DNA from: a virus
Strand: one strand, 5' to 3'
Length of the DNA: 64,000 nt
Virus record (IMG/VR): IMGVR_UViG_2511231141_000002
Below the pieces are notes generated by a model. The model was not told the DNA's origin. It saw only the letters and a list, made by a program, of their open reading frames with translations, and did no database searches. Positions 49,866 through 55,821 of this stretch are shown piece by piece. The position numbers and the translations under genes are program-made. The stretch's first letter is position 1. Each line of letters starts with the position of its first letter.

Positions 49866-50004
49866 TCCCAGTTCTCGGAATCAAGGCAGAAGGCGGAACA
49901 TGGAAACGAATCAACAGAACACCAATTCCAATGAAAGGTTTTCACTATTCTCTTTCCTTCCTTTTTTCTTTTCTAAGAGAGAAGGAAGTAAGGAGAATAT
50001 AGGA

Positions 50005-50385
50005 GTGATCCGAGGGTGATCCGAGCGTGATCCTAGGATGATCCTAGAGTGATCCGAGTGGTGTTAGTCTAGAATCCCTTGTGCTGTAAGGGATTCTGGA
50101 GTATGATCCGAGTGATCCTAGCCAGATTTACGGTTGAGAAGAAATGAGTGCTTCGATTCGTTTACAAATAGTTACTGTCGTCGAGTCATGGGTTAATATG
50201 GATAAAGTTGCTTGTAAATGGTATCGAAACGAATCGAAGCAGCAATTTTATAGAGATGCGTTTTCGACCCCGGATCACTCGGATCACACCCCGAGATCCC
50301 TTGTGGCACAAGGCTTCTCGGGATTTTGCAGATAGGAGCAATCTAGGAGCAGCCCCGGATCATAGCGCCTGTTGCTCGGATCACG
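50005..50385. repeat. Putative replication origin: RTGATCCKAG iterons
   Basis: Five copies at 11-bp period (50005-50058), two more at 50103-50121, inverted copies at 50270-50385, AT-rich spacer, two flanking hairpins. Confidence 0.75.
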
Positions 50386-50387
50386 TC

Positions 50388-50621
50388 TCATGATGCATCC
50401 TCCAATTTGGTGGCTTGGGCTAGGCGCTTAAGGGCTTGGGTGATCTCCACCTTCATCGGCAGCAGCCACTTCTCTCGGAATTCAAGCCACTCTTCTTCGC
50501 TGTCGAACCCGAGCCTCGGGTCGATGATCGGCACGATGTGGTACATACCGTTTTCCCATCTCAATGTGGCTCCGCCACATCGGGAAGCATTTAGCGTCCA
50601 ACCCAGCGTGTCATCACTCAC
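50388..50621 (-). CDS. Hypothetical protein (frame stays open upstream through WDPRPDL)
   Basis: ORF track; true start uncertain. Confidence 0.55.
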   Translation of the reverse strand: MSDDTLGWTLNASRCGGATLRWENGMYHIVPIIDPRLGFDSEEEWLEFREKWLLPMKVEITQALKRLAQATKLEDAS

Positions 50622-50793
50622 GACCTGAGTCAGTAGGACTTCCCACAGTCTGTGGTCGCTGACGAGATCCGGTCGCGGGTCCCAACGCCAATCATGTGCG
50701 CATGAAGTGATGCTCTCACCACCTGTTATTCGTCGAAATGCGTGTGAATCCTACCACTAAATCTTCCAGCCAGTACGACACATTGTGATGTCC

Positions 50794-50919
50794 GCTGTTT
50801 TCACCCGCTACCACGGCGGGCAGCGCACAGCGGACGAAGCGGCCATGCCTTGCCATAGCTTACCTTACCACACCACGCCTCGCCTGGCCGAACCGCGCCC
50901 AGCCTAGCCTCGCCATGCC
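50794..50919 (-). ncRNA. GGY-NN pentamer RNA C (16 units + structured 3' tail)
   Basis: 15/16 units GGY; NN = AT GA TA TG GC TC CA GA GT GT AA AA AT AA AT CG. Confidence 0.85.
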
Positions 50920-51382
50920 ACGTAAGGAGTTAGGGCAGCGTGAGTTCTCACCCGATGGCGTCCCGACAGGCGCGAACGTGTCTGAAGCGCGGAACACTCG
51001 CTTTTGCCGTGTCCCACGATTTTGCGCCTGCCGAACGCCACGGTCGGGCGGTGCCTCCGCCGCCCGGCGCAGCGCACGAACTGCTTGGGACAACAGCGCG
51101 CATCAGGCGCGTAATGATGCAGCTCGCGCGCCGGGCACGGCGGCGGAGAAAAGGGTTCTGGGATTATTCAGTTGCCAAGGTCCGCTCTGACGCGGCACAT
51201 CGCCTCATGAGTGTTCATATCGTGCTGTCGTGACGGCGATACGACCCGCGCCGGGAACGCGCGCTCGGCGTCCCTGGTGTCATTGGTGTGGGCGTCGTCA
51301 GACACCCGAGAGGGTTCGCCCCTCCACTCTGTACCGAAGACCTTCGGTACAGGGCGCAAGGGCGAGGGCCTTGCGCAAGCCA

Positions 51383-52009
51383 TTAAAACGGCTTCCAGTA
51401 TGGTTTGATGTCAGGGAACCGCGTCCTGCCGTGTTGGCCGCTGTTCATCAAATCCGCCAAACTCGGACCATCGGTCGGAATCCCAATAGCGTCATACCCC
51501 GCCATGAGATTCGCGCTGACGATGAGCAGGCGCTCAATCATCAGGTCAGACAGGCGATCCTGCAGACGGTGAGCGGCATCGATCAGAAGCTTCGCCTGCT
51601 CTGTCCTCACGTTAAGCTCCATGACTTTCAGTTGTTTATCCGCTACCTCGCACTGCTCGCGACGTTCAGGCGTCTCGTACTTGCCGGTCTTGCGGATGGA
51701 GGGCAAGACTTCGTGGGTGACCCAGCGCTTAAAGGCCTTCGCCTCAGGCTTGCGGCTGCCCAAGATCAGTGAATACAAACCGGCTTCGTTGATGATGGTC
51801 ATGTTCTGTTGACCGCCGGGGGTGTGAATTGAACTCACACCCTTTTCATCCTCGTCGATCCGCTCCAAGGCTTTACGATCCAACTCAAGAATCACAAGCA
51901 CGTCAGCAGCCACCCACCACGGTTCATCGTTAATCATGACGACTCGGATTCGATGGCCTTTGAACATCCATTCCATCGTTTGGTTTCCGCTCTTGTCCAC
52001 AGGTTGCAT
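51383..52009 (-). CDS. BRO-N domain antirepressor
   Basis: RIRVVMINDEPWWVAADV...INEAGLYSLI..SRKPEAKAFKRWVTHEVLPSIRKTG. Confidence 0.93.
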   Translation of the reverse strand: MQPVDKSGNQTMEWMFKGHRIRVVMINDEPWWVAADVLVILELDRKALERIDEDEKGVSSIHTPGGQQNMTIINEAGLYSLILGSRKPEAKAFKRWVTHEVLPSIRKTGKYETPERREQCEVADKQLKVMELNVRTEQAKLLIDAAHRLQDRLSDLMIERLLIVSANLMAGYDAIGIPTDGPSLADLMNSGQHGRTRFPDIKPYWKPF

Positions 52010-52096
52010 GGTATCCCTCCTGAAGATCTTGCGATTAGAAGTTGCCATTTCGGTCTGGGCCGAAAAGATTCGACCCATGGCGCAAGGGCGAAACGC

Positions 52097-52303
52097 TCAA
52101 CGCACCAACCTCAGTCGTTCTACGGCTCTGTAGATCCCCCATCCCGCCAGAATGAACGGATATAACGCTATGAGCACAAGCGCCGCGAAGAACACTCTGA
52201 CAAACCACATCAAATCTTCGTTGTCCCAGAGTTTGATCAGAACAAGAGCCAAGACGGCACCTAATAGATCTCCTCCAATAACCGCCAGCAGATATTCCGC
52301 CAT
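52097..52303 (-). CDS. Small 2-TM membrane protein
   Basis: Hydrophobic ORF. Confidence 0.6.
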   Translation of the reverse strand: MAEYLLAVIGGDLLGAVLALVLIKLWDNEDLMWFVRVFFAALVLIALYPFILAGWGIYRAVERLRLVR

Positions 52304-52319
52304 AGATGACCACCAAATC

Positions 52320-52655
52320 CTACACCGGAAGCTGCAACCCCCGACACCCGATCACCCTGCCCTCTTCGTCCAGGATGGCCTCCGCAGGGCTAAACACATC
52401 CGTTCGCCCCGCCCTCGCCGCAGCCTGCGCCACCAGCGTCGAGGCGACGTACACCGTGTCCTCCTCCGGATCCGGCAACTCGACAACTTCACCAAACTCC
52501 GTGCTGAAGACCGGGATACCATCAAGCACATCAATTTGCTTCGATGTGCTCGCCACCCGTGCCACGATGCCAGAAGGCGGGATTCGTGCGATGGTAGTTC
52601 CATCCGAGCCGATGAATGTGAGTTCGTGTGGTGTCAAATTGACAATCCGATGCAT
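52320..52655 (-). CDS. NLTPH-family protein (possible Crn4-like ring nuclease)
   Basis: NLTPH...VARV...LP.P...YVASTLVA...R.D...GRVIGC; AAGGAGG RBS; function from recall only. Confidence 0.5.
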   Translation of the reverse strand: MHRIVNLTPHELTFIGSDGTTIARIPPSGIVARVASTSKQIDVLDGIPVFSTEFGEVVELPDPEEDTVYVASTLVAQAAARAGRTDVFSPAEAILDEEGRVIGCRGLQLPV

Positions 52656-52742
52656 GCTATTGTCCTCCTTGGTCCGATTTCTGTCGCATCCTCAAATTCC
52701 TAATCAACCTCGTAGGAGCCTTCTTTTCGCGCCCCTCCGCGC

Positions 52743-52827
52743 GGCGCTCAAAGTACGGACTCGAACCGCAAGTCTCCACGGGGTGATCAGTCCCGTGTCA
52801 ACCGTGCCGCCTGCACCTTTGAGCGCC
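52743..52827 (-). ncRNA. tRNA-like cloverleaf element (not a canonical tRNA)
   Basis: 11-bp acceptor-like stem, GTGC/GCAC arm, CACGGG/CCCGTG arm, TGCGG-TTCGAGT-CCGTA T-arm. Confidence 0.55.
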
Positions 52828-52908
52828 CGGCGCAGGGGCGCGCCCTGCGCGCTCTCTAGGCGTTGACAAAGGGAGGTTCACCCACTGTAACAGTGGGCTA
52901 TGGTGCCG

Positions 52909-53140
52909 GCTGTTTTCACCCGCTACCACGGCGGGCAGCGCACAACCGGCGAAGCGACCATGCCTTGCCATAGCCTGCCGAACCTGACCACGCCTCAGCC
53001 CGCCTCACCAAGCCATTCCAGACCCTACCCCACCGAGGCTTGCCGTGCCACACCCGGCCATGAACGTTGGAGCGGTTCTTCGCCGCCCCGACCCGCCTCC
53101 GAGACACCTCGGAGACACGTCGCGGAAGCGAAGCTTCCGC
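52909..53140 (-). ncRNA. GGY-NN pentamer RNA B (leader + 21 units at 52955-53059 + tail)
   Basis: 17/21 units GGY; NN = CG GT AC AA TC GG AG CT AT TT GA GG GA GT CA TC AG AT AA AT CG. Confidence 0.87.
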
Positions 53141-53149
53141 TCAAGGCAC

Positions 53150-53770
53150 TCACTCCACGTCGTCCTCCAACACCTTATACTCCACCACCTGAAATCTTCC
53201 AAACATTGGCCTATAATCTCCAATTCCAACCAACCTTCCCGCTTGAACCAGTAGGTCATAGAGCAGTTCCGGACTGATATATTCTGGAAGAAGACACTCA
53301 ACTTGAAATTCAACTTCCCACCCTGGTAACAGCGCTGGACGAACCCTGGTAACTCCCGCTCGTTGAACTAAAACACGGCGTCTATCAAGAAAGTCTGGTT
53401 GTGCTTTTCCCATTGAAGCCAGCCACGGCGTCACGATAAATGCAGCTTTAGATAAATCTGACATTGACTTTCTTGGCGAGCGAGGATCCTGCTTGAACTT
53501 CGCCGCGTTCACGAGCGCCTGATGCAGGTAGACACCGGGAATGCAGATTTCGCCGTCTTCGTTCCGGTAAAGGTACGCTTCCCAGTTGTCCGTCTTCTTC
53601 ATCGCGCTGCCCTTGGCGGCTTGCGCCTTGGCTTCAACATCCTCACAGTCCCATCGATGGAATAATATAGGCGTCGATCCCTTCAGTCGCACAGCCGCCC
53701 GATACGGCGTCGCGAAACGAACATTGTCTCCGTCAACCGTGTAGCCTATAATGGTATTGGCAACCGACAT
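53150..53770 (-). CDS. RAMP/Cas7-like RNA-binding protein (Vipr-like)
   Basis: VRLKGSTPILFH first strand, CIPGVYLHQAL (cf. RAMP YIPGSSLKG), C-terminal G-rich loop GRLVGIGDYRPMFGRF; flanked by GGY-NN tracts. Confidence 0.8.
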   Translation of the reverse strand: MSVANTIIGYTVDGDNVRFATPYRAAVRLKGSTPILFHRWDCEDVEAKAQAAKGSAMKKTDNWEAYLYRNEDGEICIPGVYLHQALVNAAKFKQDPRSPRKSMSDLSKAAFIVTPWLASMGKAQPDFLDRRRVLVQRAGVTRVRPALLPGWEVEFQVECLLPEYISPELLYDLLVQAGRLVGIGDYRPMFGRFQVVEYKVLEDDVE

Positions 53771-53831
53771 TCGTCTTTCACCCTTTCGTTTAGGATGGAG
53801 CGGCGCGAACGCCGCTCTTTTGTTGTTCCCG

Positions 53832-54030
53832 GCTAATTTCAGACACTACCTCGGTGTCCAGCGCTCAACCGGGGAAGCGGCCATGCCACGCTCTACCACG
53901 CCGAACCATGCCACACCATGCCCCGCCTCGCCTGGCCAGGCCACGGCAAGCCATACTTTTGGAGCGACCTTCGCCGCCCCACGCCACCCCCGAAGGATTC
54001 GGAAGTGGTGTGCGGAGGCGAACCCTCCGC
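53832..54030 (-). ncRNA. GGY-NN pentamer RNA A (leader + 15 units at 53878-53952 + tail)
   Basis: 13/15 units GGY; NN = TT GT CT CA GA GG AT GT AT TC GT AG GT AT CG. Confidence 0.87.
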
Positions 54031-54033
54031 TGT

Positions 54034-54861
54034 TCATGCTGTTTGTCCGGCTGTTTCGCCTTGTTGTGTCTCTTCTGTTGACGAACCATTGGAGTTCTCC
54101 ACGTTGACTTGCAGATAATCTTCAATCCCCACCGTGATCGATTTGTGCCGTGCTTCAAGCTCTTTTCCTATCGACACGACGCGGTACTTTTCCGCTGGAG
54201 TCAATTCCCGAAGTATCTTCGGAGGTTGCAATTGACTCCATACGAACGCGCCATTTCGTTTTGTCTCCAGCGAAAGTTCGATTTCATAACTGCTCACCAG
54301 TTGACCACGAAAGCGAAGCGCGCTGACAAATTGATCCCACGCCCGATGACTCGAAGGTGGCAGTCCGAGAATCGCAGGCACTTGCGAATTTTCTTCCAGA
54401 AGATAGATTCGTCGAACGGTTTTGCATGCTTTCCCTCTTCCACCATTCGGATCACTACCAAACTGATCAAACGGACAACCCTGACACTTTCGATATGAAA
54501 TGAGTCCATCGTCCGCAACGTAGCGTCCGATCTTGCCATCGTGACTCGTGCAGAGCGGCGGCGCACTTTCACCTTCGTTCTGAGGCGCAAACAGCACTCG
54601 ACTTGTGTGAAAAAACGGGATTCTGACTCTTAATTTCTGAATAATTTCTCCAGTTGCCTCGTTTTGGAAGGCGGCCGCTTGCGCAACGATCCGATATCTT
54701 ACGGGAAGAATTTCGGCGTTCTCTTCCAGTTGCGCGGCATCTTGCATGGTCTCAGCGTATTGTTCGAGTGAGATTCCTTGAGCTTCGAGCTCCTGCGCCT
54801 GTTCGACCGTCAACCCGAGCTTCTGAAGCAGATTCGGATCGTACTGTGCCAGTGTGGTCAT
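54034..54861 (-). CDS. Phage protein, putative Zn-binding ssDNA-binding/annealing factor
   Basis: C.S.DG...CQGCPFDQFGS...GKACK..RRIY...LPPSS; follows the exonuclease. Confidence 0.6.
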   Translation of the reverse strand: MTTLAQYDPNLLQKLGLTVEQAQELEAQGISLEQYAETMQDAAQLEENAEILPVRYRIVAQAAAFQNEATGEIIQKLRVRIPFFHTSRVLFAPQNEGESAPPLCTSHDGKIGRYVADDGLISYRKCQGCPFDQFGSDPNGGRGKACKTVRRIYLLEENSQVPAILGLPPSSHRAWDQFVSALRFRGQLVSSYEIELSLETKRNGAFVWSQLQPPKILRELTPAEKYRVVSIGKELEARHKSITVGIEDYLQVNVENSNGSSTEETQQGETAGQTA

Positions 54862-54894: not shown

Positions 54895-55821
54895 TTACGC
54901 TGTCTCAGTGAGTTCGTCATGCGTTGTCGAACTGACGAAGAACATCGACTCTCGTGCACCTTCCACACCTAGGCAGAGTGGAAGGAATGGACAACCACCA
55001 TATTGATGGCAATTACTGGTATTGTGACGAATCACACCCGAACGCGCTTGCCAATTGCGTTCCAAGCACTCCATCCAAAGTTCGCTTTCAAACTGTTTGA
55101 TCTGTTCTGGGGCTCGGATCACCTCGTCTTCTGACAAGTACTTGTCGGGGTTCGACTCGTACTCCGCCAGGAGCCGGTCCCGGAAGTCCTCCCAGGTTTC
55201 CACCACCTCTCCATTGCGCCGTTTGGGTTCCATGCGGCTCTTCTGCACAGCTCTCACGATTGCACCTGCAATCGGCCTGTCGAAGACCCGCGACGCAGCA
55301 TATACATATAATGTTAATTGTTGGGACATACCGTAACTCTGTTTGAACTGTTCGATGGAGGCCGTGGTCTTGTTCTCAAGAATCCACAGGTTTCCATGTT
55401 CATCTTCGCAAATCCCATCGATCTTTCCGCCCAGCGCGTACTTTCTCGACTTGTGCCCGGTGGCGGGATTCAAGATTGGAATTTCAAACTCTCTCTCAAC
55501 CGCTACCAACCGTCGCGGCTTGAAATGTCGAACTGCGAACCGAATCATGCATTCGGTGCGGATGCGCTCAAGCTGGAGTTTGTACCGCTCCTCTTCACTC
55601 TCTGGCCGGATCCAGTCCAGCGTCTCCAAGCCCGTCCTCACCGCACCGTCCTCGTCAACCTCGCCCCGCTGCCACAACTCCAACCCCCGATGCCACGCGC
55701 TTCCAATTGAGAGCGCCCAGGAGACCTCGCGCGGGCGAAGACGTTCCACATAGTGGTAGTGTTCTTTCTGCGGGCACTGCTGCCGCATCGCGATGCGGCT
55801 GTGTGTCAGTAGTTCCACCAT
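54895..55821 (-). CDS. PD-(D/E)XK exonuclease (RecB/Cas4-like fold, recombination)
   Basis: CPQKEHY, GSAWH, GKIDGI...ENKT, C..Y..CPFLPLC. Confidence 0.88.
   Translation of the reverse strand: MVELLTHSRIAMRQQCPQKEHYHYVERLRPREVSWALSIGSAWHRGLELWQRGEVDEDGAVRTGLETLDWIRPESEEERYKLQLERIRTECMIRFAVRHFKPRRLVAVEREFEIPILNPATGHKSRKYALGGKIDGICEDEHGNLWILENKTTASIEQFKQSYGMSQQLTLYVYAASRVFDRPIAGAIVRAVQKSRMEPKRRNGEVVETWEDFRDRLLAEYESNPDKYLSEDEVIRAPEQIKQFESELWMECLERNWQARSGVIRHNTSNCHQYGGCPFLPLCLGVEGARESMFFVSSTTHDELTETA

What the first reader, a model, noticed from the sequence alone, without database searches (positions are those of the whole stretch)
50840..53952. Predicted gapped DNA targets encoded by the NN dinucleotides
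If every third base is skipped, the predicted target patterns (RNA sense, excluding the constant final CG) are as follows. A: TTnGTnCTnCAnGAnGGnATnGTnATnTCnGTnAGnGTnAT. B: CGnGTnACnAAnTCnGGnAGnCTnATnTTnGAnGGnGAnGTnCAnTCnAGnATnAAnAT. C: ATnGAnTAnTGnGCnTCnCAnGAnGTnGTnAAnAAnATnAAnAT. A 2+1 code would tolerate codon wobble changes in a rival phage. I found no full match by eye in this window.
Basis: inference. Interest (0 to 1): 0.75.

Follow-up and report, generated by a model that had tools for sequence, protein, structure and literature searches.

The report
Prophage VIPR guide RNAs, targets decoded
The three five-base repeat arrays are guide RNAs of a prophage VIPR system (a CRISPR-related DNA silencer published in 2026); read with its skip-every-third-base rule, two guides point at one small gene of a mobile element in the same chromosome and the third at the replication gene of a rival prophage.

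Summary
Observation confirmed. They belong to vrRNA arrays A (53954-53878), B (53061-52955) and C (50921-50840), around a 206-aa Vipr gene (53770-53150).

The "2+1 code" is the published VIPR 1-nt-skip rule (bioRxiv 10.64898/2026.04.26.720920). This scan has already met VIPR in at least 8 other genomes.

I tested gaps 0-3 against shuffled-order nulls; only gap 1 gives signal.
- **Guide B:** matches 31/36 (86%) over its 18 targeting units at G000:C1:352501-352553(-). The next best site scores 23 and the best shuffle 25.
- **Guide A:** matches 22/28 in the same 85-aa ORF (3000 shuffles reach at most 19).
- **Guide C:** has 9 consecutive perfect units in the primase-helicase gene of an Alicyclobacillus fructus prophage (0 of 400 shuffles reach this).

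In all 9 coding-sequence hits of this clade's guides the skipped base is codon position 3.

The A/B target is the first gene of an OB-fold/Rep_trans/FtsK operon in a small integrase-bearing element, not a phage.

No full-length near-perfect target was found in any collection searched. The three repeats nearest the 3' tail match targets only at about chance level.

Verdict: a well-supported new member of a known kind.

The parts
53878..53954 (-). vrRNA array A: 15 NN-GGY units (AT TT GT CT CA GA GG AT GT AT TC GT AG GT AT), then the constant CG
   Evidence: Parsed. The best gap-1 site in the genome is G000:C1:352681-352721(-), 22/28.
53815..53879 (-). 3' tail of vrRNA A: a two-tier stem-loop
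   Evidence: In an alignment of 17 tails, 12 of 15 pairs show compensatory changes.
53150..53770 (-). vipr gene: 206-aa RAMP (Cas7-like) protein
   Evidence: The family profile hits PDB 36pp_D 'SUSP1 Vipr protein' at E 7e-12. The AF2 model has pLDDT 84.8 and its best Foldseek matches are type VII Cas7, Csm3 and Cas7-11. The family holds 5497 proteins.
52955..53061 (-). vrRNA array B: 21 units plus CG, of which units 1-18 target
   Evidence: It matches 31/36 at G000:C1:352501-352553(-). An identical copy lies in the second prophage at C1:1801081-1801195.
52892..52956 (-). 3' tail of vrRNA B
50840..50921 (-). vrRNA array C: 16 units plus CG. It lacks the 5' leader shared by A and B.
   Evidence: Units 4-12 match 18/18 in G009:C50:52902-52927(+), the A. 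fructus prophage primase gene.
50777..50841 (-). 3' tail of vrRNA C
54509..54549 (-). Site in this prophage's own 275-aa gene hit by a foreign guide (the A. fructus prophage array at L014:4639)
   Evidence: 21/28 overall and 18/20 on units 1-10, in frame, with the skip at the wobble position. This is modest on its own (z about 2.4).

Best explanation
The three arrays are vrRNA genes of a prophage-borne VIPR system.

**Mechanism (taken from the preprints, not shown here).** They are transcribed from the minus strand. Each GGY is gripped by one protomer of the 206-aa Vipr protein, which polymerises along the RNA. The free NN dinucleotides pair with one strand of double-stranded DNA while every third target base is flipped out. 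Binding forms an R-loop and blocks transcription.

**What the guides specify (shown here).**
- Guides A and B specify codons 3-16 and 60-77 of one small gene. It encodes an 85-aa protein with a predicted OB fold and is the first gene of an OB-fold/Rep_trans/FtsK-type operon. The operon sits in a small integrase-bearing element at about 349.6-355.2 kb of the same chromosome.
- Guide C specifies codons about 933-941 of the DUF5906 primase-helicase of a related prophage with a different replication module, seen in A. fructus.

**What I infer.** The system silences replication and transfer genes of competing mobile elements. The skipped base falls on the codon wobble position, so synonymous changes do not give escape.
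For: **System identity.**
- Profile match to the solved SUSP1 Vipr protein (E 7e-12), with the GGY-contact residues aligned: H17/R138/D177/W178/R179 to H38/R144/D185/F186/R187 (residues from 10.64898/2026.04.26.720927).
- Cas7-type fold.
- GGY/NN arrays followed by a covarying 3' tail.
- Prophage setting.

**Code.** Only gap 1 gives hits above the shuffled-order nulls.

**Guide B.**
- It scores 31/36. The next best site in 3.1 Mb scores 23, and the null is 23.4 +/- 0.7 with a maximum of 25.
- Units 1-13 with up to 3 mismatches occur in only 1 of 64 genomes of the order, the window's own.

**Guide A.** It scores 22/28 in the same ORF, strand and frame. None of 3000 shuffles exceeds 19 within that gene.

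**A second allele.** A 70%-identical allele of the gene, in another assembly, is hit at the homologous codons (L010). The guides read as a mosaic of the two alleles at the protein level.

**Guide C.** It has a run of 9 perfect units; 0 of 400 shuffles reach this.

**Sister guides behave the same way.**
- A2, from the second prophage, scores 26/28 over units 2-15 on a 38-aa gene of an A. sendaiensis prophage.
- The L013 guide scores 25/26 antisense in a 272-aa gene.

**Frame.** The skipped base is codon position 3 in all 9 coding hits.
Against: - No full-length near-perfect target was found. A reaches 79% and C 77% over their presumed targeting units, below the 0.8 threshold the preprints use. 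B passes (86%) only after the three non-matching 3' units are dropped. That choice is justified by the shared constant units and by 9 pairs, but it was made after seeing the data.
- It is unknown whether 5 mismatches in 36 still allow binding.
- Expression of the RNAs, their ends, the RNP and any repression are not shown for this organism.
- The function of the target gene is not established; only a predicted OB fold supports it.
Confidence: 0.85

Rival explanations
1. The guides are real VIPR guides, but the resident element and the A. fructus prophage are only diverged relatives of the true targets. The real targets would be unsequenced alleles that match nearly perfectly. On this view the resident element coexists with the two prophages because its allele has escaped through non-synonymous changes.
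For: - Every mismatch lies in codon positions 1-2. All but possibly one (unit 18: AGn against CGT, both of which can encode Arg) imply an amino-acid difference.
- Guides A and B read as a mosaic of the two known alleles.
- An A-like guide in A. fructus differs at one unit (CG for CA) and fits that position of the element better.
- Only two alleles exist among 5.8 billion proteins.
Against: B's 86% is above the 0.8 identity the preprints accept for natural targets. Nothing better was found in the order's 64 genomes, in the protein-homologue searches of genome contigs, metagenome contigs, plasmids and phages, or in the exact A/B pattern scans of viral contigs.
Confidence: 0.4
2. The gap-1 matches are chance, and the NN positions are merely unconstrained spacers of a protein-binding repeat RNA. 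Examples would be a TRAP-like triplet-repeat leader or a G-rich structure with no targeting role.
For: - Taken alone and genome-wide, A's hit (22/28) is reached by a few per cent of shuffles.
- C's total score (20/26) equals the null maximum.
- One gap-0 outlier (24/32) occurs for a foreign guide.
Against: - B lies about 10 sd above its null.
- A's top hit falls in the same 258-nt ORF, strand and frame as B's. The chance of that location alone is about 1e-5, and none of 3000 shuffles reaches it within the gene.
- C's run of 9 perfect units is never reached in 400 shuffles.
- Four sister guides have gap-1-only hits, and all coding hits are in wobble phase.
- The adjacent protein is a Vipr homologue.
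Confidence: 0.03
3. Array C is not an active guide of this locus. It would be a decaying or 'solo-like' copy: a partial duplicate of B's 3' end without the normal 5' leader. Its match to the A. fructus primase would then be historical or fortuitous.
For: - C lacks the leader shared by A, B and A2 and follows a 460-nt structured region.
- Its tail and last units resemble those of B (88% over 92 nt).
- Its first three units do not match the target.
- The sister prophage has no C array.
Against: - Its GGY scaffold is intact in 15 of 16 units, and its tail keeps the covarying structure.
- An L013 array has the same tail.
- The 9-unit perfect run in frame is unlikely by chance.
Confidence: 0.25

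Closest known systems
Type II VIPR systems of Escherichia phage SUSP1 and the Pseudomonas fulva prophage (bioRxiv 10.64898/2026.04.26.720920, .720927 and 10.64898/2026.10.15.759431; PDB 36pp)
   Same: - A small lone RAMP protein with the same GGY-contact residues.
- vrRNAs made of GGY/NN pentamers with a structured constant 3' tail, placed both upstream and downstream of vipr.
- The 1-nt-skip rule, with the skipped base on the codon wobble position.
- Targets on either strand.
- Targets in competing mobile elements and in relatives' VIPR neighbourhoods.
- No self-target.
   Different: - The host is a Gram-positive thermoacidophile (Alicyclobacillus), and sequence similarity to SUSP1 Vipr shows only at profile level.
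- Arrays have up to 21 repeats (18 targeting), against the 9-16 reported.
- The tail is a two-tier stem-loop; no pseudoknot was tested.
- The three repeats next to the tail do not match targets here, whereas all 12 SUSP1 units pair in the cryo-EM structure.
- No clear vap gene was identified.
- Two guides aim at a Rep_trans/FtsK integrative element rather than a phage or satellite.
- The VIPR type (I-VII) could not be assigned because the preprint's tables are not held.
Class 1 CRISPR Cas7 backbone filaments (types I, III and VII)
   Same: The RRM, thumb and G-loop fold (Foldseek E 1e-7 to 1e-5). One protomer binds per RNA period, with periodic base flipping that interrupts the guide-target duplex.
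   Different: No CRISPR repeats or spacers, no Cas1/Cas2 and no other cas genes. The guide period is 5 nt with only 2 pairing bases, against 6 nt with 5 pairing bases. The guide is encoded directly rather than acquired.

Membership tests
VIPR system (Vipr + vrRNA) | A Vipr protein: a minimal RAMP homologous to the published Vipr proteins | tested here: met
   - The profile of the 206-aa family hits PDB 36pp_D 'SUSP1 Vipr protein' at E 7.1e-12 over residues 30-200 of the query and 5-188 of the chain.
- The model has a Cas7-like fold.
- H, R-P and D-aromatic-R align with SUSP1 H17, R138 and D177-W178-R179.
VIPR system (Vipr + vrRNA) | vrRNA arrays of tandem YNNGG/GGYNN pentamers with a conserved GGY and hypervariable NN | tested here: met
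   Three arrays of 15-21 units lie in the window. Fourteen further arrays lie in five related loci, including the genome's second prophage. Apart from its identical copy of B they carry different NN, while the flanks stay about 90% identical.
VIPR system (Vipr + vrRNA) | An invariable, structured 3' tail after the repeats | tested here: met
   In 17 tails the consensus has 15 pairs, 12 of them with compensatory changes. A pseudoknot like that of SUSP1 was not tested.
VIPR system (Vipr + vrRNA) | Targets follow the 1-nt-skip rule and not gaps of 0, 2 or 3 | tested here: met
   Significant hits occur only at gap 1, and the wobble phase holds in all 9 coding hits.
VIPR system (Vipr + vrRNA) | vrRNAs are expressed, co-purify with Vipr, and repress targets | not testable with these tools
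This needs sRNA-seq, a pull-down and a reporter assay.
VIPR system (Vipr + vrRNA) | An accessory vap gene next to vipr | tested here: inconclusive
   The conserved neighbours are a PD-(D/E)XK nuclease (54895-55821) and a 275-aa phage protein (phrog_23155, Pam3 gp34-like lead). They may equally be the phage's own recombination module. A 111-aa gene lies downstream, and none can be matched to vap1-6.
CRISPR-Cas | A repeat-spacer array plus an adaptation module or multi-subunit effector | tested here: not met
   There are no CRISPR-type repeats and no Rfam match. No cas families appear among the neighbours.

The most novel reading that the evidence does not exclude
In this Alicyclobacillus clade VIPR may work in a way not yet described, in three respects:
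1. The three repeats next to the tail act as a non-targeting spacer or handle, so guide length cannot be read from repeat number.
2. Two co-resident prophages share one guide and use imperfect (about 86%) matches to keep a conjugative-type Rep_trans/FtsK integrative element in the same chromosome permanently silenced. This would be domestication of a neighbour rather than exclusion of an invader.
3. The prophages of the genus form a reciprocal targeting network aimed at each other's early genes next to the VIPR locus.
Probability: 0.3. Interest if true: 0.55.

Novelty: new member of a known kind. Interest (0 to 1): 0.4.

Why it matters
The result independently confirms the published gapped code from sequence alone.

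It also gives concrete, testable natural targets:
- a small OB-fold gene at the head of the replication/transfer operon of an integrative element;
- a rival prophage's primase.

This widens the known target range of VIPR from phages and satellites to a conjugative-type element living in the same chromosome.

It also suggests a practical rule for decoding guides of this clade: ignore the three repeats next to the tail. The kind of system itself is already known.

Tried and rejected
**Initial checks.**
- Rfam gave no family over the arrays.
- Before finding the preprint I considered TRAP-like triplet-repeat leaders, G-quadruplexes, iterons and pentapeptide coding. I dropped these once the Vipr homology and the gap-1 targets appeared.

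**Searches for better A/B targets, by protein homology of the target gene.**
- The 45 family genomes hold only 26-32% homologues with no guide match.
- The 5.8-billion-protein search gave only the own gene and one 70% allele.
- Genome contigs, metagenome contigs, plasmids and phages gave none.

**Exact pattern scans.**
- C[1-10], A2[1-10], C[3-11] and A[5-14] in viral contigs: 0 hits.
- C[2-12] in genome contigs and in metagenome contigs: 0 hits.
- B[7-16] in viral contigs: one hit, in a PolA gene. Its flanks match 5/22, so I rejected it as chance.
- C with up to 3 mismatches in the order's 64 genomes: 0 hits.

**Other hits rejected as chance.**
- A gap-3 22/28 hit for A at C1:2288738 is ordinary coding DNA.
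- A gap-0 24/32 hit for the A-like A. fructus guide at C1:548812 lies in a housekeeping-like gene. It is an outlier among 56 tests.

**Steps that could not be run or gave nothing.**
- No supplementary tables of the preprint are held, so the VIPR type was not assigned.
- Pfam, NCBIfam and PHROGs gave no family for the target protein.
Full report
**1. What is in the sequence**

The + strand of 50840-53954 carries RCCNN pentamers in strict 5-nt phase at three places and nowhere else in the window. A 6-unit pattern gives 32 overlapping matches against 0 in 100 shuffles.

Read on the minus strand these are NN-GGY units:
- Array A: 53954-53878.
- Array B: 53061-52955.
- Array C: 50921-50840.

Each array is followed on the minus strand by a conserved tail. 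In an alignment of 17 tails from this genome and its relatives, the tail folds as a two-tier stem-loop. Twelve of its 15 pairs keep pairing through changes on both sides.

The surroundings are a prophage early/replication region:
- Bro-N protein.
- PD-(D/E)XK nuclease.
- DUF5906 primase-helicase.
- ResIII helicase.

**2. What it is**

A full-text search found the preprint describing VIPR systems (10.64898/2026.04.26.720920). These consist of a lone RAMP protein (Vipr) plus vrRNAs of alternating GGY/NN motifs with a constant 3' tail. Double-stranded DNA is recognised by a "1-nt skip rule".

Two companion preprints add:
- the cryo-EM mechanism, with one protomer per repeat, GGY sequestered, NN paired, the third target base flipped out and an R-loop triplex formed (10.64898/2026.04.26.720927);
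- the biology of satellite competition (10.64898/2026.10.15.759431).

The gene between arrays A and B (53770-53150, 206 aa) has no Pfam, NCBIfam or PHROG name. It belongs to a family of 5497 proteins. Evidence that it is a Vipr protein:
- A profile of 39 members hits PDB 36pp chain D, "SUSP1 Vipr protein", at E 7e-12.
- In that alignment the SUSP1 residues reported to hold the GGY bases (H17, R138, D177, W178, R179) align with H38, R144, D185, F186 and R187 here. All of these except F186 are invariant or nearly so in the family.
- The AlphaFold model has pLDDT 84.8. Its best structural matches are Cas7 proteins of type VII, Csm3 and Cas7-11.

The locus is therefore a VIPR system. The scan's own records show VIPR loci followed up in at least eight other genomes.

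**3. Test of the predicted targets in the window's own genome**

The window lies in a 3.12-Mb single-contig genome. I scored every position on both strands for each guide. Units were joined by 0, 1, 2 or 3 free bases, and guides with shuffled unit order served as the null.

*Gap 3.* This finds only the arrays themselves. It also finds a second VIPR locus at C1:1801081-1802103, in a mosaic relative of this prophage. That locus has an identical array B and a different upstream array, "A2".

*Gaps 0 and 2.* Nothing rises above the null.

*Gap 1, guide B.*
The next best site scores 26; shuffles have mean 25.2 and maximum 27.
- With the leading YNNGG unit added and the three constant 3' units removed, B scores 31/36 (86%). 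The next best is 23, and the null is 23.4 +/- 0.7 with a maximum of 25.

*Gap 1, guide A.*
- Its best site in the genome, 22/28, lies 130 bp upstream of B's site, in the same 85-aa ORF, on the same strand and in the same frame.
- Within that gene no shuffle of A out of 3000 exceeds 19.

*Frame.* In both sites the guide sense equals the coding strand and the skipped base is codon position 3.

*Specificity.* B units 1-13 with up to 3 mismatches occur in only one of the 64 genomes of the order, this one.

*Self-targeting.* The window itself holds no match above 0.68 identity.

**4. The A/B target**

The ORF is C1:352473-352730(-), protein P0001. It is the first gene of a minus-strand row:
- the 85-aa protein;
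- a Rep_trans-like protein (414 aa);
- an FtsK/SpoIIIE ATPase (491 aa).

A tyrosine integrase lies next to this row. This is a small integrative element of the replicating/conjugative type, not a phage.

The Atlas model of the 85-aa protein resembles the OB domain of RecJ (TM 0.78 by the query). This is a lead only. From my own knowledge, a small OB-fold protein ahead of a Rep_trans relaxase recalls the helicase processivity factor HelP of ICEBs1. I did not test this.

Only one other allele exists in the 5.8-billion-protein collection. It is 70% identical and sits in the same int/xre/X/rep/ftsK arrangement in assembly GCA_030555575.1. Guides A and B hit it at the homologous codons: 31/44 and 20/32 over all units.

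At the protein level the guides read as a mosaic of the two alleles. This suggests either that they were selected on a third, unsequenced allele, or that the resident allele carries escape changes. No search found a third allele.

**5. Guide C and the sister guides**

Related VIPR loci were fetched from two A. sendaiensis assemblies, from A. fructus and from A. macrosporangiidus. They gave 13 more guides. I built a 3.3-Mb universe from the own genome plus these prophage contigs, with all arrays masked.

*Guide C.*
- It has nine consecutive perfect units (units 4-12, 18/18) at G009:C50:52902-52927(+), and 20/22 over units 3-13.
- The site is in frame in the 1070-codon ORF of the DUF5906 primase-helicase gene of the A. 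fructus prophage (protein P0124, 1060 aa).
- None of 400 unit-order shuffles reaches a run of 9; the maximum is 8, seen twice.
- The window's own primase is only 42% identical to that protein. C therefore aims at a different replication module.
- C's first three units do not match.

*Guide A2, from the second prophage in this genome.*
- It matches 26/28 over units 2-15 at the start of a 38-aa gene of an A. sendaiensis prophage.

*Foreign guides.*
- They hit the 272-275-aa gene and the PD-(D/E)XK gene next to relatives' VIPR loci. One hit scores 25/26 over units 1-13 in antisense orientation.
- One A. fructus guide hits this window's own 275-aa gene at 54509-54549: 18/20 over units 1-10 and 21/28 overall (z about 2.4, modest on its own).

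*Pooled over 14 guides.*

| Gap | Mean z | Guides beating all 20 shuffles by 2 or more |
|---|---|---|
| 0 | 0.43 | 1 |
| 1 | 2.57 | 4 |
| 2 | -0.24 | 0 |
| 3 | 0.04 | 0 |

All 9 coding hits, sense or antisense, place the skipped base on codon position 3. One further hit, z 3.5, lies in the intergenic stretch just downstream of the target gene's homologue, ahead of rep, in L010.

**6. A clade-specific detail**

In nine guide-target pairs the last three units before the terminal CG match at 0.67-0.78 of 2 bases; chance is 0.5. Units -5 to -8 match at 1.7-2.0.

These last units are also partly constant between guides. The final unit is AT or GT in all 14 guides of the Alicyclobacillus loci, 16 of 17 once the three G027 guides are counted (one ends AC), and the one before it is often AA.

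I therefore treat them as non-targeting. This was decided after seeing the data and is a hypothesis for the bench. In the SUSP1 cryo-EM structure all twelve units pair.

**7. How it most likely works here**

*Shown by sequence.*
- The system is a VIPR.
- Its guides have gap-1, wobble-phased matches in replication/transfer genes of other mobile elements.

*Inferred from the preprints.*
- Vipr polymerises on each vrRNA.
- The filament binds the target DNA as a gapped R-loop and blocks transcription.
- Guide A sits at codons 3-16 of the first gene of the element's operon, and B at its last third. Binding there would shut off the OB-fold/rep/ftsK operon.

*Open.* It is not known whether 79-86% identity suffices for binding. 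The resident element may be silenced, or it may be an escaped allele.

**8. Verdict**

The system is a new member of a known kind: VIPR, first described in 2026 preprints and seen repeatedly by this scan.

New here:
- the specific natural targets;
- arrays longer than reported;
- the apparent non-targeting 3' units;
- the cross-targeting among Alicyclobacillus prophages.

Noticed in passing
window 50003-50063, and inverted copies around 50270-50390: Eleven-base iteron-like repeats (GTGATCCGAGG and variants) lie in direct and inverted orientation just downstream of the DUF5906 primase-helicase gene. They are a probable prophage replication origin.
   Followed up: no
G000:C1:1775000-1807000 (L002 and L020; outside the window): A second, mosaic-related prophage in the same genome carries its own VIPR locus, 91% identical over 1.2 kb. 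It has an identical guide B and a different guide A2, and no C array. A2 matches 26/28 over units 2-15 at the start of a 38-aa gene in an A. sendaiensis prophage (L012:2327-2368).
   Followed up: yes
window 54509-54549 (-), in the 275-aa gene at 54034-54861: This prophage is itself a candidate target. An A. fructus prophage guide matches 18/20 over its first 10 units here, in frame. The homologous 272-aa genes of relatives are hit by two A. sendaiensis guides.
   Followed up: partly
G000:C1:324829-324881 (+): An A. fructus guide (array at L014:4802) matches 27/36 in frame in a 449-aa ORF, about 25 kb from the rep/ftsK element (z about 4). I did not look at the gene or its context.
   Followed up: no
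L013:5715-5805: One A. sendaiensis array has a single extra T, making one 6-nt unit that shifts the pentamer register in mid-array. It is otherwise related to the array at L012:5725.
   Followed up: no
window 50920-51377: The roughly 460-nt non-coding stretch ahead of array C is conserved in pieces (about 90% identity) in the second prophage, at C1:1799514-1799705 and 1800004-1800095, although that prophage has no C array.
   Followed up: no
G000:C1:548812 (-): The concatenated (gap 0) NN string of the A-like A. fructus guide matches 24/32 in a housekeeping-like gene. No shuffle of 300 reaches this. I treated it as a chance outlier among 56 tests, but it is not explained.
   Followed up: partly
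L027:1526-1942 (-), G027 = A. macrosporangiidus by the name given: Three tandem vrRNA arrays lie upstream of a 67%-identical vipr gene in another genus of the family. None of their guides had a significant hit in the sequence held.
   Followed up: partly
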